The notes beneath the pieces were generated by a model that was given only the letters and a program-made list of their open reading frames with translations, was not told the DNA's origin and did not search any database. Below are positions 49,800 to 63,600 of a stretch of DNA of 64,000 bases, piece after piece. The stretch comes from a phage. The first letter of the stretch is position 1. Every line of letters begins with the position of its first letter. The stretch lies in the sequence record NC_103192.1, one strand, 5' to 3'. A program made the translations under genes and the position numbers.

Positions 49800-50265
49800 T
49801 TCTAAAATGGATTTCCTCCTTTTGATATTTCACCAGGCTGGATATTTTAAAATCCTTAGAAAATCAGAAAATGGATCGAAAACTAAAATGGATTTTTTCA
49901 AGACAGGCACGATAAGCTGCGCTGCTCATTCTATCATTCGCACCGTACTTCAAATCACAGTTCCAGATTTTCCACACACACTCTCGCCCATCTAACAGGA
50001 CTTTCCCAACTTACCTTCGACCTTTTATGACAATAAGTTAATTATTATCAGTAAGTTTTGATACATCTCTCTCAGTACTCGATCTGTTTTTCATTTCAAA
50101 GATTGGATTTTCTGAAAATTTTTCTCGATAAATTTCTCAGTACTCGATCTGTTTTTCGTTTTCTGAATTGGATTTTCTGGAAATCGTTCCAGCTCTCGAC
50201 CTGAAATTTTTGGGGACGAAATCGATTTTTCGTTTTCAGAAATGGATTTTTAAAATTTCTATATG
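49800..50265. repeat. iteron-like AT-rich repeat array
   Basis: about 6 copies of (a)aatggattt(t); three imperfect tandem copies of a ~65-bp unit from 50071 containing ctcagtactcgatctgtttttc and ttggattttctg(a/g)aaat. Confidence 0.6.
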
Positions 50266-50365
50266 GGAATATTTTAGTGGATACTATTTTATAGGAAATT
50301 GTTACGGAGGGTAATTAGCATGCTAACTAAATTTATTAAATGCGAAAAGTTCTCATTTAGAATTT

Positions 50366-50690
50366 TGAATGATAATCATTCTCGTTTGCAGAATAACGGG
50401 CACCCCCGGTGATTGTCTCCCGGCCCCTGTTGCCCCGGCTTGTTATTATAGTATCACACAGGACAAAGAAAGCAAAGACTTTTTGCATAAATTTTTAAAT
50501 GATAATGATAACCGTTCTCATTTTATGCAGCGCCCATCCCCGGTGGTTGTCTCCCCCGTCACCGGTGCCTGCCGTCCTTTCGATAGGTATATTGTGCCAC
50601 CTGGCGGGGCCGCTGTCAACACTTTTCAAAAAAAAAAAATTCTAACCTGATGCGCTAACCGTTGCAACCTGGCGGGGCCAGCCTGGCAGG
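50366..50690. repeat. GC-rich repeat family (copies A1, A2 plus acctggcgggg motifs)
   Basis: aatgataat...gttctc...cccccggtg(a/g)ttgtctccc repeated at about 50366 and 50495; acctggcgggg at 50598, 50667, 50863; inverted copy at 59727-59767. Confidence 0.5.
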
Positions 50691-50986
50691 TCCGCGCTAT
50701 AAAGTAAGCAGCTACAGAAGAGGTACAAAAATGAAAAGTAATATAATCCCCTGGAAAATGTAGCGATCAATGCCGCTGAAGTTATCGCCCTGGTTGAAAA
50801 GGCTATGGCGGGAGCGTTGGAACATAAAGAAGAGTACGAAAAAATGGTGGTTAACCTGGCGGGGGGCGGCAGGTGGATTCTATCATAAAAATAATTTAAA
50901 ATAGTCGTTGACAACAAGGTTAATCATGGTATTATTACCCTACAAGGTGAACAACACCACACTAATTAACAGAGAGGATAAAAATC

Positions 50987-51184
50987 ATGAACGCCTACGG
51001 AATTAAAGTACGTCGCAACACTCGCCAGGTGGTCACCGATCAAATGGTTTGCCGGGTGGATGTAACCATCAACAACGGGCAAGGCCTTTATAAATTCTGT
51101 CGCGGTCAGAGCTATACCCTGCAACAGCTTAATCGTTGCGCCCTGACAAAAGGTCAGATCAACCACTGGTTTAATAAAAAATAA
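50987..51184 (+). CDS. hypothetical protein
   Basis: 65-aa ORF with GAGAGGA upstream and a TTGACA-type promoter at about 50907. Confidence 0.5.
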   Translation: MNAYGIKVRRNTRQVVTDQMVCRVDVTINNGQGLYKFCRGQSYTLQQLNRCALTKGQINHWFNKK

Positions 51185-51248
51185 ATATTGACATGTAGTC
51201 TGAAACAAAACATACTGAAAGCACAAAAGGCACTAAGAGGATAAAATC

Positions 51249-51647
51249 ATGAAAACCACAACCTTTAATTTTGACAATGCTGACTTCTCTTTTTCTGATG
51301 TTAAAAGCTGCCGCCGTGATCGCGGATTCTACAAGGCCTATAATCTGGTTGGCCTGGACGATGATAATAATTTGCACGAAGTAGCGGAGATCCGGTACTA
51401 TGCCGCCGCCAGCGGTAACACTCACTACTGCGTTTTTTGGATACACGACAACAAGAACAATAAGTACGGTTATACTGGCGGCAAGGCGAGCGGTCACGGT
51501 TATGATAAAGCTAACGCAGCACTTGAGAGCGCATTAAATGCTATGGGGATCACTGCCGACGGCTGGATCTACGAAGAAGGGTTTTTGTCGGCACTTGCTG
51601 ACCACCTAGGCTATAAAAAGCACATTGTAACATGTGCCCACGAATAA
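51249..51647 (+). CDS. hypothetical protein
   Basis: 132-aa ORF after AGAGGA. Confidence 0.55.
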   Translation: MKTTTFNFDNADFSFSDVKSCRRDRGFYKAYNLVGLDDDNNLHEVAEIRYYAAASGNTHYCVFWIHDNKNNKYGYTGGKASGHGYDKANAALESALNAMGITADGWIYEEGFLSALADHLGYKKHIVTCAHE

Positions 51648-51735
51648 AAAAAAAAATTATTGACACGCTGCAAAATTCAAGTAAACTATGCACAAAAGGC
51701 GGGAATGTTTCCCGCCAACACAAAGGAAAAAGATC

Positions 51736-52131
51736 ATGAATAAGAACGTACGCCGCATCATGAACGAACTGGCAAACGATGAAAAAATTATTGACATGCA
51801 TTTAGTCAACATTTGCCGCCGTTGTGTAACATATAACAACCGCGCCGCAAAAGCGCGTGAGATGAACGCAAAAGGCACCTTAAAGCCCTTTCAGGTGGTT
51901 GTAAAATCTATAACTAATGCAGCAGGCCAGGCGCATGACCACAACAACGAGAGCGCTAATATTGATCCGTCTTACGTAATGAAACGGATCCGGACTTGCA
52001 AGAATAAAGAGCAGGTGTATAACGTCATAGATTGGCTGGACTCCCTGGGCGATGTGGTTTACAATAGGTTTTCTGCAGCTATCGAGATCCAGCTTGACAG
52101 ATTGGACGGGAAAGTACTAAAAACTTATTGA
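51736..52131 (+). CDS. hypothetical protein
   Basis: ATG after AAGGAAAAAG; preceded by promoter and hairpin ggcgggaatgtttcccgcc. Confidence 0.55.
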   Translation: MNKNVRRIMNELANDEKIIDMHLVNICRRCVTYNNRAAKAREMNAKGTLKPFQVVVKSITNAAGQAHDHNNESANIDPSYVMKRIRTCKNKEQVYNVIDWLDSLGDVVYNRFSAAIEIQLDRLDGKVLKTY

Positions 52132-52178
52132 GTTTATTTTTAGATGGCCTTGACACCAGGGCCATCAATAAAGTAAAC
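52132..52178 (+). promoter_or_regulatory. repeated promoter/operator cassette, copy 1
   Basis: tttatttttagATGGCCttgacaccagGGCCATcaataaagtaaac: -35 TTGACA inside a 6-bp-arm inverted repeat. Confidence 0.5.
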
Positions 52179-52210
52179 TAATCTCAGTTAGGCTAAAAGG
52201 AGGCTTGAAG

Positions 52211-52330
52211 ATGAGCACTACACGCCAGCACACAAAGGTAACCATCATCGTTTGCATCATTGGTTACATCCTGGCGCAAATGTTGATGGGTAGCGCCAAT
52301 GATTTCGCAAAATTTTTCTTAAACTTCTAA
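52211..52330 (+). CDS. small hydrophobic peptide (39 aa, below ORF-track cutoff)
   Basis: ATG after AAAAGGAGG; MSTTRQHTKVTIIVCIIGYILAQMLMGSANDFAKFFLNF. Confidence 0.4.
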   Translation: MSTTRQHTKVTIIVCIIGYILAQMLMGSANDFAKFFLNF

Positions 52331-52358
52331 TTGACAAGCTAACTTAAATCAGTATAAT
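52331..52358 (+). promoter_or_regulatory. sigma70-type promoter
   Basis: TTGACA (52331-52336), 16-nt spacer, TATAAT (52353-52358); followed by leader hairpin and the gene at 52411. Confidence 0.6.
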
Positions 52359-52410
52359 ACTAAGCACATAAACGGGAAAACTTCCCAGAACACCAAAAGG
52401 AGAAAACATT

Positions 52411-52761
52411 ATGAATACTTCCATCACTATGACCGCCGAAGAAAAAGCCCTGCAGATCGCCGCTCTGAAAAAACAGATTGCAGAACTTGAAGACAAGATC
52501 GACAATTTTGAAATCGACGAAGACAAACACGACGATAAATATGATGAATGGTTAGACGAGATCTACGGCGAAATCATGATCGGAAACATTTCTTTTCTTC
52601 CGTCGCGTATCCTCAAGGAGCTAGATCCTATCGCTTACCGCTGCGGATTTAGCGACTACATCGACAGCCTAGATATTGAGGACGATGAAGAATACCAGGA
52701 ATTGCAGACAGAGCTCGAAGAAGTGAAAGAGGAGCTTTCAGAGCTGGAAGAAAACGAGTAA
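52411..52761 (+). CDS. highly acidic coiled-coil protein (candidate DNA mimic)
   Basis: 116 aa, rich in D/E (IEDDEEYQELQTELEEVKEELSELEENE). Confidence 0.6.
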   Translation: MNTSITMTAEEKALQIAALKKQIAELEDKIDNFEIDEDKHDDKYDEWLDEIYGEIMIGNISFLPSRILKELDPIAYRCGFSDYIDSLDIEDDEEYQELQTELEEVKEELSELEENE

Positions 52762-52808
52762 ATTTATTTTTAGATGGCCTTGACACCAGGGCCATCAATA
52801 AAGTAAAC
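52762..52808 (+). promoter_or_regulatory. repeated promoter/operator cassette, copy 2
   Basis: identical to copy 1 over about 47 nt; immediately follows a stop codon. Confidence 0.5.
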
Positions 52809-52850
52809 TTTATACTGTTAACACTTAACCAATACAGAGGAGTTAAAACC

Positions 52851-53096
52851 ATGGCCGCACTAATTACCAAATATTATGCCCCTACCAACACCAAAAGCGC
52901 CCGTATCATGGTAAAAGGCTTCGGACGTAAAAAGGTGTACACCTGGGATTATTCCCTAGACATGGAAGACAACTACACCAACGCGATGACAGATTTTATT
53001 AATGAGCTGAACACGCGGATCTTGACAAATTATAAAATTACCGATATTGCCTATGTAGGGGAAGGCGGGATCTGTTTTGTCGGTATCGTCAAATAA
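52851..53096 (+). CDS. hypothetical protein
   Basis: 81-aa ORF after AGAGGAG. Confidence 0.5.
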   Translation: MAALITKYYAPTNTKSARIMVKGFGRKKVYTWDYSLDMEDNYTNAMTDFINELNTRILTNYKITDIAYVGEGGICFVGIVK

Positions 53097-53172
53097 ACTG
53101 TTTTTTCGGTGGTCCTGGTAGCAGGGCCATCTATAAAGATAGTTTATCAACACAATGAAAGGAGAAAGTAAC

Positions 53173-53520
53173 ATGATCAGCGGGGCAAGTTTTATTATTG
53201 GCGCTATTGCTACGGCTTTAATTGTAAACAAGATCCAGGATAAAAAGGAAAGTACCGCCCTTGCAGAATATCCATTTTGGACATTCAACGATAATGAAGA
53301 TTATATTGTAAAGTATAAAAATAAAGAAGGTGACCAAGTAACACCGCGACCGATCCCGGCTTACAAAATGCAGGAAACACTGTACCGCCTGGAAGCGGGG
53401 GGCGCAAAAATTGTAGACTTTTGGGGATACGATCACACAGATCAGGAAGTTATAAAGCGCCGTATCCGGGCTATTCAGGCCAATATCGAAGTTAGTAAGG
53501 GGGGAATATATGAAGATTAA
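53173..53520 (+). CDS. hypothetical membrane protein
   Basis: ATG after AAAGGAGAAAG; N-terminal hydrophobic segment. Confidence 0.5.
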   Translation: MISGASFIIGAIATALIVNKIQDKKESTALAEYPFWTFNDNEDYIVKYKNKEGDQVTPRPIPAYKMQETLYRLEAGGAKIVDFWGYDHTDQEVIKRRIRAIQANIEVSKGGIYED

Positions 53521-53707
53521 TTTTGAAAAGATTGTAAAGCGATCTCATGATTCCGAAGAGCTGCCGGAACGCCGCCAGCGTAACAATAAACTGAATAAGC
53601 CAAAAAGATTTGGGAAGATCTGGCGGAATCATTATGATCGCAAATTACCGGGCCTGCTTTTGGAACGTGAACGACAGGCGGAACGATACCGCCACAAAGG
53701 CAAATAA
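53510..53707 (+). CDS. small basic protein
   Basis: 65-aa Arg/Lys-rich ORF. Confidence 0.45.
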   Translation: MKINFEKIVKRSHDSEELPERRQRNNKLNKPKRFGKIWRNHYDRKLPGLLLERERQAERYRHKGK

Positions 53708-53715
53708 CAACCAAC

Positions 53716-53741
53716 GCCCCGCCATTGTGCGGGGCTTTTTA
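53716..53741 (+). terminator. intrinsic terminator
   Basis: gccccgccattgtgcggggc followed by tttttatttc. Confidence 0.65.
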
Positions 53742-53952
53742 TTTCTATCCTACGAATAGCGCCCCTGGTTGGCCCCACAAACGCCACAAAAGCCCCTACC
53801 TATGCAATCCCCTTTCTTAATCTGAAAACATCACCCAGGGCCGTTTTATGGCGTTAAAAATATTATTGACAGTTATTTTATTTAAAGCTTGACACCTTGG
53901 AATAGTCCGGATATACTAGCCACATCAAAGCAAGAAGGAAGGAGTAAACGCC

Positions 53953-54213
53953 ATGCGTAAATTGAAAAATTTTGATAAGGTCGATGCAGTACTAAATAAT
54001 TTTTACTACTGCAATAATAAAGCCGTTTGGTGGCGTGATAGTTCCACCGATAAAGTTAAAGCGCGCTTTCTCCAGGGGCACTGGCAAGGCCGCCCAGTGA
54101 TTAAAATCTTGGGGCAATTGGTAGCGTTTAAAAATTGCCGCCGTGTTGATGACGTTGAAGAGATTTTAAACATTTTGCGCCACAATAATTTAAAAAATAG
54201 TGTTGACAAGTAA
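53953..54213 (+). CDS. hypothetical protein
   Basis: 86-aa ORF after GGAAGGAG. Confidence 0.5.
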   Translation: MRKLKNFDKVDAVLNNFYYCNNKAVWWRDSSTDKVKARFLQGHWQGRPVIKILGQLVAFKNCRRVDDVEEILNILRHNNLKNSVDK

Positions 54214-54285
54214 GTATCAATAAGTATACTTAAACACAGGCGGGAAAACTTCCCGCCACTAACAAAGAAAATAGGAGAAAATATC

Positions 54286-54909
54286 ATGACCACCGTTAAC
54301 ATTACCACAGGTTACAATTTAGCTTTCGACGTGCTGACCGACGAACAAAAAGAAAAAGCCGTTGAAATGGTCCGAGAAAGAGAAGAACACAGCGGGGATA
54401 ACTTTTTTGCAGAAAGTGTAATTGAAGACTATAAAGAATATGTCTTTCCAGAGTATGGCCTTGAAGATACCAAGGTACATTGGTCCGGCTTTTGGTGTCA
54501 GGGTGACGGCGCGTCAATCAGTGCGGAAAACGTGGATTTAGAAAAATTCTTGCGTAAAGTCAAGTCTCTGACTAAATTTCGCTCAATTCGTCACTTGTTC
54601 GGCACAATGCACGATGGCGAACTATCCGCAAGTGTTGAGCGTGATCCATATAGCCGCTATAGCCACGAAAACACTGTAAACGGGTACATCGATACTACAT
54701 GGCTAGACCTGACCGCCAAACAAGAAGATAAAGTGGAAGATTTGGAAGAACTGATCACCGAGACGGTACGGGAGCTATCCCGCAAGGTTTACGTAGACTT
54801 GGAAGCGGCCTATTTGGAGCAATTCACATCTGAAAACCTGATCAACCTTATTAAGGACAATGATTGGCGGTTTGATGTAGATGAACATGGCGAGATGACT
54901 TTTTCATAA
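54286..54909 (+). CDS. hypothetical protein
   Basis: 207-aa ORF after ATAGGAGA; preceded by promoter and hairpin ggcgggaaaacttcccgcc. Confidence 0.55.
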   Translation: MTTVNITTGYNLAFDVLTDEQKEKAVEMVREREEHSGDNFFAESVIEDYKEYVFPEYGLEDTKVHWSGFWCQGDGASISAENVDLEKFLRKVKSLTKFRSIRHLFGTMHDGELSASVERDPYSRYSHENTVNGYIDTTWLDLTAKQEDKVEDLEELITETVRELSRKVYVDLEAAYLEQFTSENLINLIKDNDWRFDVDEHGEMTFS

Positions 54910-54998
54910 ATAAAGTGTTGCAATAACCTAAAAACCTGCTATATTAAAACTCAAGGGGGCAAGACGTTTGCCCCACACAAAACAAAGAGGAAAACATT

Positions 54999-55379
54999 AT
55001 GAAAAACACTACTAAAGCTATTGACACCGTTATGTTTAACCTGGTTACCTTTCGCGAGGATATGAAAGATCTTCCACGTGAAACAGTGTGCGATCACATT
55101 GAAAACTATCGCAAACTAATCAAAGAGTTGCCTTTAAAACGTGACCAGTATGCGGCTAACGCTATGCTCAACGCCATGATCAAAAAGATGATTCAGTGTG
55201 ATTTAACCCTGGCCTATGATTATGCAGGTGGTCGTTTTGCAGTATATAATCAGCCCGTGCCTGGTATGGGCACCACCGAAGAATTGCACGCGCTCAATCT
55301 AAAACAAGACGTGTGGGATAGTATGCCTCGCGTGGTGGTGTGGGCAGAAAGCGGAAAGATTTACGGCGATAATTTTTAA
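54999..55379 (+). CDS. hypothetical protein
   Basis: 126-aa ORF after AAAGAGGA. Confidence 0.55.
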   Translation: MKNTTKAIDTVMFNLVTFREDMKDLPRETVCDHIENYRKLIKELPLKRDQYAANAMLNAMIKKMIQCDLTLAYDYAGGRFAVYNQPVPGMGTTEELHALNLKQDVWDSMPRVVVWAESGKIYGDNF

Positions 55380-55445
55380 TCAAGAACAGACGGCGGCATA
55401 TTTGCCGCCTTATTGTTAAACAGAACTGCAAAAGAGGTACATAGA

Positions 55446-55817
55446 ATGGAATTTATTATTTTGGCTGTATTAGTTGCCTTGTTTAACGCCTGGATCGCTG
55501 GCAAGATGGGTAGATCCGCCTTTTTATGGTTTATTATATCTATTTTCCTGGGGGTGGTTGCAACTATTGTATTAGTTATCCTTGCAATTGTTGACAAGGG
55601 CGATAATAGAAAGGGTAAAGTATTTTCAGACCTGTACGACGCTCAAACGTTTGTCAACGCATATTATAGTGATCTTCCAGTCTCCCTACGCTGCAGCCTG
55701 GCACAACAAGTTTTCGATGAGGCTAAAACCAGAGATCAAGCCCATGAGATATGTTTAACTGAGGCGGATCGCCTATTTGAGAGGAATAGAAAATATGTGG
55801 GCCAACCGTTTAAATAA
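55446..55817 (+). CDS. hypothetical membrane protein
   Basis: two hydrophobic segments at N-terminus; ATG after AGAGG. Confidence 0.5.
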   Translation: MEFIILAVLVALFNAWIAGKMGRSAFLWFIISIFLGVVATIVLVILAIVDKGDNRKGKVFSDLYDAQTFVNAYYSDLPVSLRCSLAQQVFDEAKTRDQAHEICLTEADRLFERNRKYVGQPFK

Positions 55818-56040
55818 TGCCACGTTAATTAATCCCTTTAGTGAAGATTTGAAGCCAGCCGCCTGGCGTGATGGATTCAATACCGAACGCTTTATTTTCA
55901 GGCCTGATCTTGAGGAATTTTATAACAATGGATCGAACAACGACAGAGATAATTTTTCTTGTGATGTGCGTAGTGATGGTACTCCTGGGGGCCATTGTAA
56001 ACCACGTCACTACTACCAGGAGGAAAGGGGGAGACGATGA
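55795..56040 (+). CDS. hypothetical protein
   Basis: ATG after GAGAGGAA. Confidence 0.45.
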   Translation: MWANRLNNATLINPFSEDLKPAAWRDGFNTERFIFRPDLEEFYNNGSNNDRDNFSCDVRSDGTPGGHCKPRHYYQEERGRR

Positions 56041-56156
56041 CACCCAAGGATAAGCCACGCACCGATAAGGCGCGCCGTGTTATGGTGTGGCTGGAGATCA
56101 TCGCCCTTGAAATATTGTTAGGCGTAGGGATGTACTTTATCGCTATAAGTAACTAA
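56037..56156 (+). CDS. small membrane peptide (39 aa, below ORF-track cutoff)
   Basis: ATG overlaps upstream stop (ATGA) after GGAGG; hydrophobic C-terminal half; followed by a hairpin plus T-run at 56161-56190. Confidence 0.35.
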   Translation: MTPKDKPRTDKARRVMVWLEIIALEILLGVGMYFIAISN

Positions 56157-56295
56157 GAACGGCCCCCGATCATGGGGCTTATCTTTTTAAAAAATTTTTC
56201 TTCTAGGGTGTTGCAATCCGGTCCGAGATGTGGATAATGACAATCAACGGGGAGCCAATCCCCACCAACACAAAAAACCAGAAAGGAGAAACAAA

Positions 56296-56496
56296 ATGAG
56301 CAACAATATCCGCGTTATTAACTTCAAAAAAGAAGAAAAAATTGCCGTGCTGATTGACGGTCAAGAAATCTTCAAGGGCGATTATGAAGATCATCAAACG
56401 GCGATTAGTATCACTCGCGTGATCGGTTACCATAATTTCTACCCCCAAGGCGCTGAGGCAGCAGTTAAACGAATCAAAGAGATTGTAGGCCTGTAA
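56296..56496 (+). CDS. hypothetical protein
   Basis: ATG after AAAGGAGAAA. Confidence 0.5.
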   Translation: MSNNIRVINFKKEEKIAVLIDGQEIFKGDYEDHQTAISITRVIGYHNFYPQGAEAAVKRIKEIVGL

Positions 56497-56545
56497 AATT
56501 TATTTTTAGATGGCCTTGACATCAGGGCCATCAATAAAGTAAATT
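56497..56545 (+). promoter_or_regulatory. repeated promoter/operator cassette, copy 3
   Basis: aatttatttttagATGGCCttgacatcagGGCCATcaataaagtaaat; one substitution in the spacer. Confidence 0.5.
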
Positions 56546-56581
56546 TAAACCCTGTTAAAATAATCAGTGCAAAAAGGAGTA

Positions 56582-56887
56582 ATGATCATGTTTATACCCG
56601 CCAATAATCTTTATTTCTTTGATGGTCAGATCGTAGACGGTGTGGAAGTCGAGATCACTGGATGTCAAGGCGGTCAGGCAATGATCTTTCGCAATAGTGC
56701 CTTTAACGATCAATTCATTACAATGACCATGGAAGTTAAAAAGCTGGACGATAAGAAAACGCTCATTGACTATTCCGTGAAAGATCATCCAGACTACCAC
56801 ATGATCTATGGTGATTTGTGCATTGTTGACCGTGACAAGGTGGGCGGCATTGTGATCGCTATTGTGAACGATGTTTTCTCAAACTAA
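56582..56887 (+). CDS. hypothetical protein
   Basis: ORF after AAAAAGGAG; start 56582 or 56588. Confidence 0.5.
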   Translation: MIMFIPANNLYFFDGQIVDGVEVEITGCQGGQAMIFRNSAFNDQFITMTMEVKKLDDKKTLIDYSVKDHPDYHMIYGDLCIVDRDKVGGIVIAIVNDVFSN

Positions 56888-56904
56888 TTTCAGCAGGTGA
56901 TTTT

Positions 56905-57255
56905 ATGAAAGTAAAACTATATTACCTTAATGAGCTTAACCCCCTTGCCCAGGTCCGCGCCCTGGCTAATACCTTGATTTGTGAGAAATCTGCATATTGT
57001 GTTGAGCTTAACGCCATGCGTGAACGTCTTAAAGGGGGTTACTTTGACATCCATGCTGCAATCAACGGCCTGAATATGGGATTTATACGCTTACGTAACA
57101 GCCGCCGGAATCTGGCAAGAATGGAACAAGATCCGGCCCACCTTCGTAAGCTGGTTATTGAAAACCATCTGATGTTTAATGCCGAGGGTGATTATTACCA
57201 TTTTCACCGCAAACGCTGGTACCGTGGCGGCAATACAGGCAAGAGTGCAAAATAA
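56905..57255 (+). CDS. hypothetical protein
   Basis: 116-aa ORF. Confidence 0.5.
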   Translation: MKVKLYYLNELNPLAQVRALANTLICEKSAYCVELNAMRERLKGGYFDIHAAINGLNMGFIRLRNSRRNLARMEQDPAHLRKLVIENHLMFNAEGDYYHFHRKRWYRGGNTGKSAK

Positions 57256-57290
57256 GGCCCCAGGCAGGGCCTGCAGCGATATAATCACAT

Positions 57291-57324
57291 AAAGGCTATG
57301 CGGTTGCATGGCCTTTATTATTTT
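57291..57324 (+). terminator. intrinsic terminator
   Basis: aaaggctatgcggttgcatggccttt followed by attatttt. Confidence 0.55.
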
Positions 57325-57456
57325 AGCGTTACAGCGGCCTCCAAGGCGCTTAAAAATTTTTAAAGAAGTACTTGCATCAAGCCCTACAATATGGATAATA
57401 GGACGTGTCAGGGGGGCGGCCCCCAATCATTAACCAGATAGATAGGAGTTAAAACC

Positions 57457-57741
57457 ATGGCTATTGTTACCGCTGGCGATGTAGTAGAAATGGAAGCAAA
57501 ATACTTAAAAGCTGGTATGCATATCATCCGCAATGATCTTGATCTGGTCCTCACTATGGTTGATTATAACCCTGGTCAAGATTATCCAAGCGTTGACTAC
57601 TTTTTCCAGTATGTTGATGAAGAATTAAAAGAGGATGAGGCTTATCGGGGTGAATTTTGTAATTTCTTTTGCCCTGATGAGGTTGTAAAAGTTATTTATC
57701 AACCTGGCGTACCTTTCCCGTTGCACGCTATCAATAAATAA
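57457..57741 (+). CDS. hypothetical protein
   Basis: 94-aa ORF after ATAGGAG. Confidence 0.5.
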   Translation: MAIVTAGDVVEMEAKYLKAGMHIIRNDLDLVLTMVDYNPGQDYPSVDYFFQYVDEELKEDEAYRGEFCNFFCPDEVVKVIYQPGVPFPLHAINK

Positions 57742-57807
57742 ACCTGGAGGGGCCGATAAGGCCCCCACCCAACCTGAGATTATGAAAATAAAGAGAGACA
57801 AATCATC

Positions 57808-58041
57808 ATGATGGAACAAATTAAACGCGCTGAGGCTATTAATGGCAATGTGATCTATTTTGTCAGCAAAAACGAAAAAGGCGTACCATATGCGGCGGTA
57901 ATAGTACAGCCTGACGGCAATTATTGGTTTACTGTATACGGATCTTATTCTTTCGGGCGTCCGGTGCATGATAGAATTTTGAAAGTAGCGAACCCCACCG
58001 GGAAGAATATCACGGCAGAAAAATTTTTTGAAAATAATTGA
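57808..58041 (+). CDS. hypothetical protein
   Basis: 77-aa ORF. Confidence 0.5.
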   Translation: MMEQIKRAEAINGNVIYFVSKNEKGVPYAAVIVQPDGNYWFTVYGSYSFGRPVHDRILKVANPTGKNITAEKFFENN

Positions 58042-58119
58042 CAACGTTTTAAATTAGTTTAAGATGTATCACGTAGGGGCAAGCGCCCTATTAAACGCAA
58101 CAAGAAGAGGATAAACACC

Positions 58120-58359
58120 ATGAAAAGCAGTAAAGGTTATAACGGTTGGAAAAACTTTAATCAGTGGAACGTTGTTCTGTGGATCAATAATGACGAAAGT
58201 ATGTACTTTTTCGCCCTGGGCCTGATTAATGAGTGTGGTAATAAAGGTGCGGCGGCTGATTTGATGTGCTACCGTTTGAAACAGGAAGGGATCACCCATA
58301 CCCCTGACGGTGTGCCTTATACTAAAACCAATATCCGCGCCGCTATGGTTGGAATGTGA
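58120..58359 (+). CDS. hypothetical protein
   Basis: 79-aa ORF after AGAAGAGGA. Confidence 0.5.
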   Translation: MKSSKGYNGWKNFNQWNVVLWINNDESMYFFALGLINECGNKGAAADLMCYRLKQEGITHTPDGVPYTKTNIRAAMVGM

Positions 58360-58448
58360 TAAAATAGCTTGACACTGTTTTTTATTCTGGTATAGTTTAT
58401 CACATAGGGCGGCAATAGTGCCGCTCACAACTAAAAAGGGAAATCATC

Positions 58449-58643
58449 ATGGCGCTTAAAAAACTAACAAGCAATACTCGTTGGGATGAAATCGACGGGG
58501 AAGTTTACATTTTTGCCCGTAAACCAGGGGATCAAAAATGGTCAAAGGCTTTTACTTGCCACCCTGCAACAATAGATCTAATAAAAAGTAAAGGTTTACG
58601 TGAAGCAGTAGCGAGAAGTTTACTGATCCCTTATAAAAAATAG
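58449..58643 (+). CDS. hypothetical protein
   Basis: 64-aa ORF after AAAAAGGGAAA. Confidence 0.45.
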   Translation: MALKKLTSNTRWDEIDGEVYIFARKPGDQKWSKAFTCHPATIDLIKSKGLREAVARSLLIPYKK

Positions 58644-58703
58644 TTTGACAATATCGCACTAACCTTTAAAATGTTCTCTGTTACGTATCTTTAAAGGTGT
58701 AAC

Positions 58704-58883
58704 ATGTTCCAATCAATCATTGATGTTCTATCAGTCGCTAACAACGTGATGAACGTCATTACAATGATTAAACTTGTTGCGTGGTTTGTTTCTGGGGATT
58801 ATCGCTATACTAAGTGGCGCAAGCCAACCATAAAAGACGTAGCAAAGATCTTGTTTGAAGCAATGACAGAATATTATCTATAA
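58704..58883 (+). CDS. small hypothetical protein (59 aa, below ORF-track cutoff)
   Basis: ATG after AAAGGTG; promoter-like TTGACA at about 58644. Confidence 0.35.
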   Translation: MFQSIIDVLSVANNVMNVITMIKLVAWFVSGDYRYTKWRKPTIKDVAKILFEAMTEYYL

Positions 58884-58979
58884 CGATTATTTTTTGTTGA
58901 CATCTTGGGATTGCTCTTTTACTATTAACGTGACTCGAAGGCCGTAACTGGTACGGCCTGATTCGAAAGGTGAATTAAT

Positions 58980-59180
58980 ATGAAACGTTTTACTTATGGC
59001 GTTGTTGGTGGGTATGTATCTAACCGTTTTTACAATACCGAGCGTGGTGCTAAAAATGCCGCTACCCGTGAACATGGCAATAGTGTGAATTTACAAATTG
59101 GTTATATTAGCAACATTAGTGGTATGTTTATTCCGGTTGCTCAACGCGGCATGTATTGCATAAACTGGATGCCAATGTAA
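58980..59180 (+). CDS. hypothetical protein
   Basis: 66-aa ORF. Confidence 0.45.
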   Translation: MKRFTYGVVGGYVSNRFYNTERGAKNAATREHGNSVNLQIGYISNISGMFIPVAQRGMYCINWMPM

Positions 59181-59195
59181 AAAGGAGTAATAAAA

Positions 59196-59387
59196 ATGAA
59201 TGCCGAACAAGTTAGAAAGGTATTGGCGGTACTGCGTTATCATAATCATAGAAAGGTCATAGACGATCCTGATTATGTTGATTCAAGCCTGGAAGAAGGC
59301 ACATTGCAAGCTATAAGCCATATGCAAGAATTGCTTAAGCGTATGACAGAGAAAAACAGATCTGATTATATAGGTGACGAGATCTAA
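59196..59387 (+). CDS. hypothetical protein
   Basis: 63-aa ORF after AAAAGGAG. Confidence 0.45.
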   Translation: MNAEQVRKVLAVLRYHNHRKVIDDPDYVDSSLEEGTLQAISHMQELLKRMTEKNRSDYIGDEI

Positions 59388-59471
59388 AATAGCTTGCACA
59401 ATGTATCTGATAGTGTAAGATGTATCACGTAGGGCGGCAATGGTGCCGCTCACAACTGGAAGGAAAACACC

Positions 59472-59675
59472 ATGACTACAGCTAACCGCCTGATCGCCGT
59501 CCTGAACAAAGCAAAGGCTAACCGCCTGGATGTTCAAATCAAAGATCAAGCAAATGGCGAGATCCTTGCTACGGTGTCCGATGGCGGTTATGTATCGGAA
59601 TCATTTTTATCAGGGAGCTTAGATCATCTTGTTTGGAAATTAGAAATTATCGTGGAGGATATGCAGATCATCTAA
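59472..59675 (+). CDS. hypothetical protein
   Basis: 67-aa ORF. Confidence 0.5.
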   Translation: MTTANRLIAVLNKAKANRLDVQIKDQANGEILATVSDGGYVSESFLSGSLDHLVWKLEIIVEDMQII

Positions 59676-59684
59676 TCTTTACAA

Positions 59685-59712
59685 AACAGGGCTTGCAATG
59701 GTCCTGTTTTTT
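59685..59712 (+). terminator. intrinsic terminator
   Basis: acagggcttgcaatggtcctgt followed by tttttt. Confidence 0.65.
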
Positions 59713-59726
59713 GTTATACTTATTCT

Positions 59727-59767
59727 ACGGCAGGCACCTGGCGACGGGGGGAGACAATCACCGGGCC
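59727..59767. repeat. inverted copy (A3) of the GC-rich repeat seen at 50533-50576
   Basis: cggcaggcacctggcgacggggggagacaatcaccgggcctgcc is approximately the reverse complement of ccccggtggttgtctcccccgtcaccggtgcctgccg. Confidence 0.5.
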
Positions 59768-59879
59768 TGCCTGTCATATAAGAACTATAAAAACCGTTGA
59801 CATCTGCCATGGGGTGGGGTAACATTTATCTTGAAGGGGCAAAAGTGCCCACACAACAACCAGGAGAGAGGAAAACATT

Positions 59880-60152
59880 ATGTCAAGCTGGATTAATCAA
59901 GAAGTCGAATCACGTTTTAACGCTATTTGGGATCTCATCGAAAAAGAAGACGGAACATCAAGCCCCTACCTCAACAATTTGGAATTCCATTTTGTGGAAG
60001 CGATGAACGCAGAACATGATCACGAAGGTGGTGCGGATGAGTTCGCTAAAGGTTATGGCTTCAACAGCGCCAACGAAATGATCGAGGCGGTTGTACTCCA
60101 GGCTGAGGAAGATTATCAATTAAAAACGCTTGAATTTTGCCGCCGTAAGTAA
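59880..60152 (+). CDS. hypothetical protein
   Basis: 90-aa ORF after AGGAGAGAGGAAAA. Confidence 0.5.
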   Translation: MSSWINQEVESRFNAIWDLIEKEDGTSSPYLNNLEFHFVEAMNAEHDHEGGADEFAKGYGFNSANEMIEAVVLQAEEDYQLKTLEFCRRK

Positions 60153-61038: not shown

Positions 61039-61057
61039 TTTCTTAACTGAATTATCA

Positions 61058-61083
61058 AGGGGCTTAAAGGCCCCTTTCTTTTT
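61058..61083 (+). terminator. intrinsic terminator closing the small-gene module
   Basis: aggggcttaaaggcccct followed by ttcttttt. Confidence 0.65.
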
Positions 61084-61099
61084 GTCTGCTCTTCTCCTA

Positions 61100-63600
61100 C
61101 CATAAACGGCCCCACCCGGCAAGTGGAATAATTGACTAGCCAGCAATTGCCTGCACTGTACAAACATACAGGTAAAATAGTTATTGCATAACCTTTCATT
61201 GTGTGGTAGCAGTGCCATTTTTACACGTTTTTCCTTCCAAAATTGCACGTAATGCCGCTATTGCATAAATTTTAACCTGATGCATATCTTCAATATCTTG
61301 TCAACAACTAAAAATCTTTATAAGTCATACACTTACACCACCACAAAAGCGTGTTCTACGTGAAAAATCGGGTGTAACTATAGCCGCCAGATCTCAGAAT
61401 TTACGTACGCTCACCAGTCTATAGCCTGCTAAGTATTTATTCCAACCATAGAATAACGGAATAGTCAATACCTGCATAAAATAATTATTCGTGTAAACTG
61501 CATAACATAAATCAGCCAGGGTGTCAACATTTTTCGTAAACATCTCGAAATTATCACGATGAGTTATCATAAACAGAGAAATCTTTAGTCGTCTAATGTT
61601 TACTGTACATTACTATACTGGCTGGAATCATTAGATGACTAAGAGAAAGATAAGAAATAGTTAACAATGTAATTGTTTTACCTGTAACAATAAGGCAACT
61701 ATGCAAACGAATGGCATGGCGCGACGGAGTCGCGACATAATATAAAAGCAGTAACCATCACCCCCGTGATAGTTTGTCTGCAAACTATTAATCAGATCAT
61801 AGTTGCCTTGTAGTTAGTTAATCATGACACAATAAGCAAGGCAACTATAGATCTGCTAATAGTTGCCCTGCTTTTATATTATGTCATAGAAACACCCGAA
61901 GGGGTGACCGAAGGTCACCTGGCCTAGCCAGTGAAAGATTATTAACTTGTTAATTGTTAACTTGCTAATTGTTTTCATGCAAACGAATGTCATGGCTTAT
62001 CATATCTGCGTGAACAGTGAAACATGGAAATGATAAATATGTGAACAGTTATCCATGTAAACTATTAGACATGCAAACAATCAGGTGTGCAAAAGTGACA
62101 TAGTATGTCACCAGTATGTCATAGTATGTCAGACAAGTTTTTCTCCTCTTTGTCAAGTGCTGCATGGAAAATTTACAAACTGGTATGGTAGCATTTTTGC
62201 GGCCCTGTTTACATTCAGGAGTGTATGTATAATCCTTGTTGTGTGGGCGTTTAGACGTCTGGACGGTCAGAAGTCCGCAGGTTAATATCTAATCTATTGG
62301 TTGCTAACTATATCCCACACAAATAGTAAGAAATATAATTGTTATATGCGTAAACAGTAACTCATGTTATCAATCCATGTATGGATCGCCAGTGGTGCGC
62401 ATAATGGGTATTATGTTAAATTGCCCGTAATGATAACCATTCCCACAATGATAGGTATTCTCATTCACCCCCACAAGATAGGTTGCAAATGTTGTGCCAC
62501 TGTGTGAACGGCCTCACCTATTAATTTGCCCCACTGCCTCGATATTTGAGAATTGTTATAAGAATGAGAAGTATTCCCATTCCGTCCGCCTGGCAGCACT
62601 CCAGTCGCTAACGCTCTCGGGCTGAGAGCTATGCTCGATGCTACCGGCTCCTGACAGGGAGGCACTCCTGTAGGACAGGTCAAAATCGGGGCATAACTGG
62701 ACCCCCCTTCAGATATTTCTGGCTGACTCTTCAGGTCTGTGTGGGAAAAGCCAACCTCTCCGGCAGAGGGGAGGGGGTCAATTAAAAAATTTACGTGGTG
62801 TATGAAGCGCTCTTCAGGCAAGGTGTGTATTATGGGAGGAATCACTCTTCAGGTGATGATATTTGTGGGTGTGATATTTGCTGGAAAGCCAGATATGACG
62901 GGACTCCCGGCGGGGCAGGGGTAGTACAGACAGGGAAAATGTGGAGAATGTGGTGGGTAAATTGATCAGGCAGGTAGAGTATGAAATATGTTACAGGTAT
63001 GTTAAATATGGAGGGTGAATATCTGTAAGATTTGTGTGTAAAATCAAAGACTTAAGTGGTGTTGTGGTATTTTCTATAAATAATTCAAGTTTAATAGGTA
63101 ATATTTGTCTCTATCCACTTTGTGTGGTAACCAGATTCAGATGAAATTGGTTTACAAGTGTATACATAATATACAAATTAAAGATACAAGAAACCCCCCT
63201 CCCCCTTCGGCTACCATTCACCTTTTCCTCTGACTGGTACTTAAACACTTATTCAGACTCTTCAGGTTATCACCCATATATCATATGGCAGTGACTGGTG
63301 TCCTCCGGCCCCTCTTTCGTCACCCGTCCGCTTCGCCATGCTAATGCCATAGCCAAAGGTTCGGTTGTTCACCCTGTTCACTCAGGTGTATCTCCATACC
63401 CCTTCAAACCGAAGAGAACAGAAAACCCGAATTACTCGGTAAAAGAAAAGAGAAGAACTTAATTTTATCAGGATAGGCAAGAATGTCAAGGCATGACTGC
63501 TCACTAAACAAGCAAACAGTCATGTGTGGGAGGTAAGTGATTGTGGTGGTAGGAAATTTAGTTGAAAGATGTGTTATAGGTGCTTCCAGCACTTTAGCCG
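61100..63600. repeat. 2.5-kb non-coding, repeat-dense region
   Basis: no convincing ORF; ggcaactat/atagttgcc x4 in alternating orientation (61691-61879); 18-bp inverted repeat gacataatataaaagcag / ctgcttttatattatgtc; agtatgtca x3 (62098-62135); ctcttcagg x4; attgcataa x3. Confidence 0.5.

What the first reader, a model, noticed from the sequence alone, without database searches (positions are those of the whole stretch)
52411..52761. 116-aa highly acidic coiled-coil protein: candidate DNA mimic
The ORF is extremely rich in Asp/Glu over a predicted helical scaffold and is expressed from its own strong promoter in the small-gene module. This composition and size are characteristic of DNA-mimic anti-restriction or anti-defence proteins (Ocr/ArdA-like), although no sequence similarity can be asserted by eye.
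Basis: inference. Interest (0 to 1): 0.45.

Follow-up and report, generated by a model that had tools for sequence, protein, structure and literature searches.

The report
Hyper-acidic early phage protein, function untested
A real, strongly promoted 116-residue gene of an rV5-like E. coli phage encodes the most acidic protein of the genome and belongs to a very large, phage-only, uncharacterised family with an unmatched fold; it is a reasonable but unproven candidate for a DNA-mimicking inhibitor of host proteins, and it is not related to Ocr or ArdA.

Summary
Window 52411-52761 (+) is rV5 ORF192 of a Vequintavirus. It encodes 116 aa with 32% Asp+Glu, net charge -27 and pI 4.05. It is the most acidic of 631 ORFs in the genome set, and its size and charge nearly match T7 Ocr (117 aa, -28). 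It has a perfect sigma70 promoter of its own.

The protein is not a plain coiled coil. AlphaFold (pLDDT 90) gives a heptad N-helix and a very acidic heptad C-helix around a conserved 50-residue core (helix, beta-hairpin, two helices; motif SRILKELDPIAYRCGF). The core defines a family of at least 3,570 clusters at 50% identity:
- it is found almost only in phages of many host phyla
- it often sits in early regions
- every member examined is acidic

Profile comparison with Ocr and ArdA is negative.

Published plating data show that Vequintaviruses escape type I restriction. Two control phages that lack the family escape too, so this is not specific support.

Best reading, at about 0.37: a polyanionic DNA-mimic decoy against a host DNA-binding protein, target unknown. 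No function was tested.

The parts
52130..52180 (+). Upstream copy of a 47-51-nt intergenic stem-loop element that contains a -35-like TTGACA. It starts right after the stop codon of the preceding 147-aa gene.
   Evidence: The 40-nt core is identical to the copy at 52769-52808. The element belongs to repeat family D1. A promoter-like site TTGACA-18-TAAACT lies at 52150-52179.
52211..52330 (+). 39-aa hydrophobic small ORF, the equivalent of rV5 ORF193. It lies between the upstream element and the promoter of the target gene. It is context, not shown to be functionally linked.
   Evidence: ORF list and sequence: AGGAGG lies 16 nt before ATG 52211. It is annotated in rV5 as ORF193.
52331..52358 (+). 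Sigma70-type promoter: TTGACA, 16 nt, TATAAT.
   Evidence: It matches 12 of 12 consensus positions. The rV5 record annotates it as promoter P192. Activity and timing were not measured.
52373..52387 (+). Small 5'-UTR hairpin, CGGGAAAACTTCCCA.
   Evidence: It is one of three such hairpins placed just downstream of strong promoters in the window, against 0.06 expected by chance. Its fold energy is weak: -6.8 kcal/mol, z -1.1.
52397..52402 (+). Shine-Dalgarno sequence AAGGAG, 8 nt before the ATG.
   Evidence: Read from the sequence. The same RBS and start context recurs at 54271 and 54984 (family D2).
52411..52761 (+). Coding sequence of the 116-aa hyper-acidic protein (rV5 ORF192; phrog_9294).
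52435..52503 (+). N-terminal amphipathic heptad helix, residues 9-31, with near-neutral charge.
   Evidence: AlphaFold2 helix H9-31. The a/d positions I16, L19, I23, L26 and I30 are conserved as hydrophobic in 171 distant members.
52519..52674 (+). Conserved core domain, residues 37-88: a helix with an acidic stripe, a beta-hairpin and two short helices. Signature: YDEWLDE..G.I.IG..SF.PSRILKELDPIAYRCGF.DY.DSL.
52687..52752 (+). C-terminal hyper-acidic heptad helix, residues 93-114.
   Evidence: AlphaFold2 helix H93-114. The a/d positions Y95, L98, L102, V105, L109 and L112 are conserved. Most of the other positions are 60-80% Asp/Glu across the family. The segment resembles the 'acid' strands of designed acid-base coiled coils in the PDB.
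52760..52810 (+). Downstream copy of the intergenic stem-loop element, starting at the stop codon of the target gene.
   Evidence: The RNA fold is -22.5 kcal/mol with z -6.65. No U-tract follows, so it is not a canonical intrinsic terminator.

Best explanation
The gene encodes a small, soluble, very acidic accessory protein that host RNA polymerase makes from a consensus sigma70 promoter, most likely early in infection. A conserved 50-residue core domain sits between an N-terminal amphipathic helix and a C-terminal helix covered with carboxylates. The two helices are predicted to pack against each other as an antiparallel hairpin. The most likely mode of action is a polyanionic decoy, that is, a DNA mimic in the functional sense. 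Its fixed arrays of Asp and Glu would occupy the DNA-binding surface of a host protein and block it. Candidate targets are a restriction or BREX-type complex, RecBCD, or a nucleoid protein; which one is unknown.

Shown here: the gene, its promoter sequence, its composition, the family and its distribution, and the predicted fold.

Inferred, not shown: early timing, binding to a host protein, DNA mimicry, and any anti-defence effect.
For: **Charge**
- Net charge is -27 over 116 aa, the top of 631 ORFs, and matches Ocr's size and charge.
- The acidity is selected, not incidental. The 177 family members of 160 aa or less have a median of 31% Asp+Glu and a median net charge of -27, and none is above -5.
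- All 48 dereplicated metagenomic and phage-locus members are acidic, from -4 to -31.
- Acidic residues sit at fixed positions. In the core helix, positions 41, 42, 46, 49 and 50 are 71-85% acidic and position 45 is 50% acidic. In the C-helix most non-core heptad positions are 60-80% acidic across 171 distant members.

**Rigid scaffold**
- The predicted structure is confident: pLDDT 89.9 for the whole protein and 89.1 for the core.

**Expression and genome position**
- The promoter is a perfect sigma70 match with a good RBS.
- Homologues lie among the first genes, next to sigma70-like promoters, in Autographiviridae: Providencia PS3 gp05 and Pseudomonas Lepni01 gene 4.

**Distribution**
- The family is essentially phage-only. 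Only 5 metagenome-assembled-genome (MAG) contigs appear among 185,579 species genomes. No true plasmid carries it. IMG/VR gives 53 loci. There are 3,570 clusters in all.
- It occurs in phages of Proteobacteria and Actinobacteria, and on MAG contigs binned as Cyanobacteria, Bacillota and Mycobacterium. This fits a target that is generic, such as a DNA-binding surface.

**No enzyme signature**
- No catalytic motif and no Pfam, NCBIfam or PDB relative was found.
Against:
- There is no sequence or fold similarity to any solved DNA mimic.
- The most conserved part is a compact core with hydrophobic, Gly, Pro, Cys and two basic positions (K69, R77). This looks more like a specific fold or binding module than a charge array.
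- Core identity of 45-60% across very distant phages is unusually high for the known mimics (own knowledge).
- Acidity alone is not diagnostic, because many phage proteins are acidic.
- The only phenotype data are neutral. Vequintaviruses plate at 0.06-1.1 on type I systems. So do a Felixounavirus and a phi92-like phage that lack the family.
- Vequintaviruses are strongly restricted by type II and III systems (PMC8594841).
Confidence: 0.37

Rival explanations
1. It is a specific protein-protein inhibitor or modulator that works through the conserved core domain and does not mimic DNA. The SRILKELDPIAYRCGF surface would bind one conserved host (or phage) protein, and the acidic helices would serve solubility, oligomerisation or secondary contacts.
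For: - The core is the only part shared by all members. Many members of 58-75 aa are little more than the core.
- Conservation is highest at non-acidic positions: P73, A75, Y76, G79, C78, S65, L68.
- The C-helix resembles the acid strand of acid-base heterodimeric coiled coils, which could pair with a basic helix of a partner.
Against: - Even the core-only members are strongly acidic, from -10 to -17 over 58-75 aa.
- Host range spans several phyla, so the target would have to be nearly universal.
- No conserved neighbouring gene points to a partner.
- For so small a domain, the conserved residues may simply be the fold's core.
Confidence: 0.28
2. It is specifically an Ocr-like inhibitor of type I restriction-modification and BREX.
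For: - Size and charge match Ocr.
- No Ocr or ArdA homologue exists elsewhere in the window or the three WalterGehring segments, which together cover the Vequintavirus genome. No anti-restriction gene is annotated in the three WalterGehring segments read, which leave out record positions 50,001-59,999.
- Vequintaviruses with 9-15 EcoKI sites plate at EOP 0.06-1.1 on EcoKI and EcoCFT_I. A control phage with 3 sites drops to 1e-4 (PMC8594841 supplements).
Against: - The same escape is seen in Bas63 (9 sites) and in the phi92-like group (12-14 sites). Bas63 and Bas60 have no family homologue: best hmmsearch E is 0.12-1.3.
- WalterGehring encodes three putative N6-adenine methyltransferases that could also matter.
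- There is no homology or fold similarity to Ocr or ArdA.
- BREX was not tested in that data set.
Confidence: 0.12
3. It has a role within the phage itself. For example, it could be an acidic chaperone or neutraliser for basic phage nucleic-acid-binding proteins, or a regulator of phage replication or transcription.
For: - Acidic helical proteins often chaperone basic partners (own knowledge).
- A very basic 65-aa ORF (53510-53707) lies 750 bp downstream. It is syntenic in two Vequintavirinae-sized contigs of about 139-141 kb.
- Some homologues are modules of large polyprotein-like proteins.
Against: - Across 48 dereplicated loci, basic small neighbours are not enriched: 11 of 48 against about 18% expected.
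- No neighbour is conserved beyond closely related phages.
- The carrier phages share no specific replication or transcription machinery; they include myo-, podo- and siphoviruses.
Confidence: 0.15
4. It is a spurious ORF or a compositional artefact.
For: None beyond the low-complexity look of the C-terminus.
Against: - It has a consensus promoter and RBS.
- Substitutions against rV5 are 7 synonymous to 2 non-synonymous.
- Thousands of homologues exist.
- The structure prediction is confident.
Confidence: 0.01

Closest known systems
T7 Ocr (gp0.3), DNA-mimic inhibitor of type I R-M and BREX
   Same: - Length and charge nearly match: 116 against 117 aa, 32% against 29% Asp+Glu, net -27 against -28.
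- Both are mostly helical and end in an acidic tail.
- Both are phage genes with a host-type promoter.
   Different: - No detectable homology: Pfam gives no hit and hhalign probability is 1% or less.
- The predicted topology differs: a helical hairpin plus an alpha/beta core.
- The dimer state and the target are unknown.
- The family is far more widespread than Ocr's.
ArdA (Tn916 Orf18 type), DNA-mimic anti-restriction protein of plasmids and ICEs
   Same: Both are highly acidic, act early after DNA entry, and have a broad taxonomic spread.
   Different: - No homology: hhalign probability 0.2%, and phmmer finds no hit in the phage.
- ArdA is a three-domain protein of 165 aa.
- This family is absent from plasmids.
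Coiled-coil DNA mimics T7 gp5.9 and lambda Gam (inhibitors of RecBCD; gp5.9 also of MukBEF)
   Same: Acidic heptad helices could display carboxylates along a rod. These are small early phage proteins. This is a resemblance by kind only, from my own knowledge and the titles listed.
   Different: - The comparison was not made sequence to sequence.
- gp5.9 and Gam lack anything like the DPxAY core.
- Oligomerisation of this protein was not tested.
PHROG families 9294, 9396 and 37123 (unknown function)
   Same: The protein is a member: E 4.7e-51, 2.6e-10 and 1.8e-9. The core domain is the same.
   Different: These families carry no functional annotation, so membership names the protein but does not explain it.

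Membership tests
Ocr (T7 gp0.3; Pfam Ocr family) | Sequence homology to Ocr | tested here: not met
   - The Pfam scan at E up to 10 lists no Ocr family among the 25 best of 39 weak hits.
- hhalign of the family profiles against the Ocr sequence gives probability 1% or less. That sequence was verified as 1s7z_A at E 4.6e-73.
Ocr (T7 gp0.3; Pfam Ocr family) | The Ocr fold (a helical monomer that forms a banana-shaped dimer mimicking bent B-DNA) | tested here: not met
- The predicted topology includes a beta-hairpin.
- The dimer could not be modelled.
Ocr (T7 gp0.3; Pfam Ocr family) | Very high negative charge on a small protein | tested here: met
   Net -27 over 116 aa, against -28 over 117 aa for Ocr.
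Ocr (T7 gp0.3; Pfam Ocr family) | Inhibits type I R-M and BREX by occupying the DNA-binding groove | not testable with these tools
   Only indirect plating data exist, and they do not discriminate.
ArdA | Sequence homology to ArdA | tested here: not met
   - No ArdA family appears among the 25 best of the 39 weak Pfam hits shown.
- hhalign probability is 0.2% against the verified 2w82_A sequence.
- phmmer of ArdA against all ORFs of the window and WalterGehring gives no hit at E of 1 or less.
DNA-mimic proteins (functional class) | A rigid surface array of carboxylates with the spacing of DNA phosphates | tested here: inconclusive
   - Acidic residues are conserved at fixed helical positions on a confidently predicted scaffold.
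- No coordinates are available, so distances could not be measured.
DNA-mimic proteins (functional class) | Binds a DNA-binding protein in competition with DNA | not testable with these tools
   This needs pull-down, EMSA competition or complex prediction.
PHROG 9294 / 'DPxAY-core' family (uncharacterised) | A significant match to the family profile that includes the conserved core | tested here: met
   - phrog_9294 at E 4.7e-51.
- A local family HMM gives E 4.6e-47 and a core HMM gives E 6e-30.
- D72, P73 and A75 are invariant in the alignment of 171 members; Y76, G79 and D82 are nearly so.
PHROG 9294 / 'DPxAY-core' family (uncharacterised) | Acidic composition | tested here: met
   The family median is 31% Asp+Glu and net -27; the target has 32% and -27.

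The most novel reading that the evidence does not exclude
The DPxAY-core proteins are a new and very widespread structural family of phage polyanionic (DNA-mimic) inhibitors. They would be used across phages of several bacterial phyla, either as early-transcribed genes or, in some viruses, as tandem modules of large proteins whose repeated AE(S/T)F linkers suggest proteolytic release. They would act on a near-universal host DNA-binding target.
Probability: 0.22. Interest if true: 0.7.

Novelty: new variant of a known kind. Interest (0 to 1): 0.45.

Why it matters
Known DNA-mimic and anti-defence proteins belong to a handful of narrow families, and most small early genes of large virulent phages have no assigned function. 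This gene belongs to a family of thousands of clusters that has no Pfam model, no solved structure and no tested function. The family also shows three traits together: selection for extreme acidity, restriction to phages, and placement among early or accessory genes.

If it proves to be a mimic or another host-directed inhibitor, one experiment would annotate a very large set of phage 'dark matter' genes. It might also yield a broad-spectrum inhibitor useful for phage engineering or for DNA transformation of restrictive hosts. If it does not, the family is still a clean, small, confidently folded domain worth a structure.

Tried and rejected
**Libraries and structure searches**
1. Pfam and NCBIfam gave only sub-threshold coiled-coil noise such as HalX, FlxA and SMC-like families. 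The source names attached to homologues ('SbcCD ATPase', 'GvpG', 'Zn-ribbon') are the same artefact.
2. PDB sequence searches with two profiles hit only the acidic heptads, in occludin, designed coiled coils and GCN4 acid strands. Nothing hit the core.
5. By eye, PSRILKELDPIAYRCGF resembles the ArdA C-terminal VPASLQNYIDYQAYGRDL. hhalign rejects this at probability 0.2%.

**Genomic context**
6. Neighbourhood analysis of 60 loci found no neighbour conserved outside one group of related phages. That group carries an SprT-like protein, a MoxR-like ATPase and a DUF2201-like gene nearby, assigned by eye from sequence motifs only. Basic small neighbours are not enriched.
7. Longer family members carry no informative fused domain. 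The only one is Kyano_Gp96, itself of unknown function.
8. The plasmid search returned one 'plasmid', which is a mis-filed rV5-like genome.

**Phenotype data and literature**
9. At first the BASEL plating data looked like specific support, because Vequintaviruses escape type I restriction. I rejected this after finding the same escape in Bas63 and in the phi92-like group, whose scanned genomes Bas63 and Bas60 lack the family.
10. Five literature searches, with three further papers read, found no paper that treats this gene or family.

**RNA**
11. Rfam found nothing significant in 50000-57500.

Full report
**What the window is.**
- The 3 kb around the finding is 92-94% identical to more than 100 genomes of rV5-like E. 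coli myoviruses (genus Vequintavirus). The best match is phage WalterGehring at 94%.
- The ORF corresponds to rV5 ORF192 (ABI79257.1, 'hypothetical protein'). The rV5 record annotates a sigma70-type promoter, P192, just upstream of it.
- It lies in a long run of about 55 small, same-strand hypothetical genes downstream of the DNA polymerase gene.

**Observation check.**
- The ORF is at 52411..52761 (+) and encodes 116 aa.
- It has 37 Asp+Glu (31.9%) against 10 Lys+Arg. Net charge is -27 and pI is 4.05.
- It is the most acidic of 97 ATG ORFs of at least 60 aa on the + strand of the window; the next has 22.7%.
- It is also the most acidic of 631 ATG ORFs of at least 50 aa on both strands of the window plus WalterGehring.
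- T7 Ocr is 117 aa with 29.1% Asp+Glu and net -28.
- The promoter TTGACA-16-TATAAT at 52331-52358 matches 12 of 12 positions and is the best site in the region. AAGGAG lies 8 nt before the ATG.
- Against rV5 the gene differs at 9 of 351 nt, with 7 synonymous and 2 non-synonymous codon changes. That is 97.4% identity, in a region that is 92.5% identical overall. This is a gene under purifying selection.

**Anatomy of the protein.** AlphaFold2 on a 22-sequence alignment gives a confident model with mean pLDDT 89.9 and pTM 0.68. Its elements are:
- helix 9-31
- helix 37-52
- beta-hairpin 55-62
- helices 64-71 and 73-86
- helix 93-114

An alignment of 171 family members from outside Vequintavirus shows the pattern of conservation:
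- Both terminal helices have conserved heptad a/d hydrophobic positions: I16, L19, I23, L26 and I30 in the N-helix, and Y95, L98, L102, V105, L109 and L112 in the C-helix.
- The N-helix is of mixed charge.
- Most non-core positions of the C-helix are 60-80% Asp/Glu.
- Residues 37-88 form a separate small domain. Its first helix carries an acidic stripe: positions 41, 42, 46, 49 and 50 are 71-85% acidic and position 45 is 50% acidic.
- The rest of the domain holds the signature SRILKELDPIAYRCGF.DY.DS. D72, P73 and A75 are invariant in that alignment. S65, L68, Y76, C78, G79 and D82 are nearly invariant. K69 and R77 are conserved basic positions.

Folded alone with a 74-sequence alignment, the core is again confident at pLDDT 89.1. 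'Coiled coil' therefore describes only the two ends of the protein.

**The family.**
- A word-seeded search found 50 relatives.
- An exhaustive profile search of 1.84 billion cluster representatives found 3,570 proteins at E of 1e-3 or less and 1,281 at 1e-10 or less. Most are 100-135 aa.
- A second profile search found 1,431 proteins. None has an informative name or Pfam domain.
- There are two architectures. The long form has the N-helix, core and acidic C-helix, as here. The short form, of 58-75 aa, is little more than the core plus a short acidic tail.
- Acidity is universal. The 177 members of 160 aa or less have a median of 31% Asp+Glu and a median net charge of -27, and none is above -5. 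The C-terminal flank is 47% acidic. Dereplicated locus-derived members range from -4 to -31.

**Distribution.**
- Carriers include Vequintavirinae and other large myoviruses of Vibrio, Klebsiella, Salmonella, Serratia and Aeromonas. They also include Autographiviridae of Proteus, Providencia and Pseudomonas, Pseudomonas myoviruses, and phages of Microbacterium, Clavibacter, Gordonia and Stenotrophomonas.
- IMG/VR gave 53 loci.
- A scan of one genome for each of 185,579 bacterial and archaeal species gave only five hits, all on MAG contigs.
- The plasmid collection gave one hit, a 137.6-kb record that is an rV5-like genome.
- In Providencia phage PS3 the homologue is gp05, and in Pseudomonas phage Lepni01 it is gene 4. 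Both lie in the host-transcribed early region ahead of the replication or RNA polymerase genes.

**Comparison with what is known.**
- Pfam, NCBIfam: nothing above threshold, only coiled-coil noise.
- PHROGs: families 9294, 9396 and 37123, all of unknown function.
- PDB by sequence: only the acidic heptads match, for example the acid strands of GCN4 acid-base heterodimers. Nothing matches the core.
- BFVD: only uncharacterised phage proteins.
- hhalign of the family profiles against the verified Ocr and ArdA sequences: probability 1% or less.
- The protein is therefore not a member of the Ocr or ArdA families. It resembles them only in bulk properties.

**Context.**
- All eight neighbouring genes belong to PHROGs of unknown function and have no Pfam domain.
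- Clustering the neighbours across 60 loci shows no gene that travels with the family beyond closely related phages.
- I tested the idea of an adjacent basic partner. A very basic 65-aa ORF lies at 53510-53707, but basic small neighbours occur in 11 of 48 loci against about 18% expected.
- Longer members add no informative domain.

**Phenotype data.**
- The BASEL paper states that Vequintavirinae are 'exceptionally susceptible' to R-M systems (PMC8594841).
- Its raw data show a split. WalterGehring has 13 EcoKI and 6 EcoCFT_I sites and was grown on a restriction-less host. It plates at EOP 0.11-0.56 on EcoKI and 0.12-0.75 on EcoCFT_I. On EcoRI it plates at about 1e-4, and on EcoRV and EcoP1 it forms no plaques.
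- DrSchubert and RudolfGeigy behave the same way.
- A control siphovirus with 3 EcoKI sites drops to about 1e-4.
- This is the pattern an Ocr-like protein would give, so I looked for a control.
- The Felixounavirus Bas63 (9 EcoKI sites) plates at 0.75-1.5 on EcoKI. The phi92-like phages (12-14 sites) plate at 0.10-0.72. The block I take to be Bas60 lost its header at the part boundary.
- hmmsearch without filters, using the family HMM and a core HMM against every six-frame ORF of Bas63 and Bas60, finds nothing better than E 0.12. The same models score 1e-47 and 1e-30 on the Vequintavirus gene.
- Escape from type I restriction is therefore common among these large myoviruses with or without the family. 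It is not evidence for this gene.
- WalterGehring also encodes three putative N6-adenine methyltransferases.

**Mechanism.** The facts that need explaining are these:
- selection for extreme negative charge at fixed positions on a rigid small scaffold
- restriction to phages
- a host-type strong promoter and early-region placement
- spread across phages of very different hosts
- no enzymatic signature

The explanation that covers most of them is a polyanionic decoy, a DNA mimic in the functional sense, that blocks a host DNA-binding protein. I put this at about 0.37, with the specific Ocr-like target (type I R-M or BREX) at about 0.12 within it.

The main rival is a specific binder acting through the conserved core, at about 0.28. 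It is favoured by the unusually high conservation of non-acidic core residues and by the existence of core-only members. A role inside the phage's own biology comes at about 0.15. None of these was tested; everything beyond sequence, family and predicted fold is inference.

**Novelty and value.** I found no paper on this gene or family in five literature searches, with three further papers read. It is best described as a possible new structural variant of a known kind of protein, the acidic phage decoys. It belongs to a large uncharacterised family. It is a good, cheap experimental target rather than a surprise in itself, so I score interest at 0.45.

Noticed in passing
window 52130-52180, 52760-52810, 56496-56546; degenerate copy at 53095-53145: A 47-51-nt intergenic element, TTTATTTTTAGATGGCCTTGACACCAGGGCCATCAATAAAGTAAAC, starts right after stop codons.
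- It folds into a strong 10-bp stem-loop: -22.5 kcal/mol, z -6.65.
- No U-tract follows it.
- It carries TTGACA-18-TAAACT.
- Two copies with an identical 40-nt core bracket exactly the unit made of the 39-aa ORF, the P192 promoter and the target gene.
- It resembles the promoter-early stem-loop (PeSL) cassettes described for T4-type phage RB49 (own knowledge). That would make the gene part of a shuffling cassette.
   Followed up: partly
window 51700-51714, 52373-52387, 54241-54255: Short hairpins of the form CGGGAA-NNN-TTCCCG sit just downstream of three strong sigma70-like promoters, in the 5' UTRs. Three are found against 0.06 expected. The RBS and start context AAAGGAGAAAACATTATGAA also recurs at three genes. 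This may be a shared leader for stability or regulation.
   Followed up: partly
PMC8594841 supplements 5 and 7 (BASEL raw data): Large virulent myoviruses with 9-15 EcoKI sites plate at EOP 0.06-1.5 on both type I systems while being hit hard by type II and/or type III systems. These are Vequintavirus, phi92-like phages and a Felixounavirus. A siphovirus with 3 sites is restricted 1e4-fold. The paper attributes weak type I restriction to rare sites. The data instead suggest unidentified anti-type-I functions in several phage groups.
   Followed up: partly
L062 8001-10514 (protein P0152); also P0060, P0072, P0088, P0104, P0108, P0111: Some homologues are large proteins of 211-837 aa with two tandem core domains at the N-terminus.
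- Further modules are separated by repeated AE(S/T)F motifs: 5 in P0152, reached by 0 of 2000 shuffles.
- Four of the seven have a C-terminal hydrophobic anchor.
- P0152 lies on a 145-kb contig whose other genes are almost all unrecognisable.
- The motifs look like protease cleavage linkers of a polyprotein. This was not tested.
   Followed up: partly
window 53510-53707 (+): A 65-aa, extremely basic ORF (MKINFEKIVKRSHDSEELPERRQRNNKLNKPKRFGKIWRNHYDRKLPGLLLERERQAERYRHKGK) lies 750 bp downstream. It is conserved in the same position in two contigs of about 139-141 kb that carry a 54-57% identical family member.
   Followed up: partly
L005, L037, L040, L051, L058, L061 (family members listed): Several short-form family members replace the acidic tail with a Cys-rich acidic tail, for example ECEDCGECVIDCKCEE and CDECGCEYDCEYDAECCCEDEE. 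This suggests a metal-binding variant.
   Followed up: no
window about 61040-63300: An ORF-poor stretch of roughly 2.3 kb, somewhat AT-rich (GC 0.36-0.38 over 61200-62400), lies where the + strand and - strand arrays of small genes converge. The corresponding WalterGehring region (93,912-96,377) is unannotated. It has no tRNA and only short tandem repeats.
   Followed up: partly
MG0656xx phage records: Seventeen records named 'Campylobacter phage', with host given as Campylobacter jejuni, are 135-143-kb genomes that match this E. coli Vequintavirus region by megablast, and their copy of the ORF translates at about 90% identity. This looks like contamination or mislabelling in the source records.
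   Followed up: no
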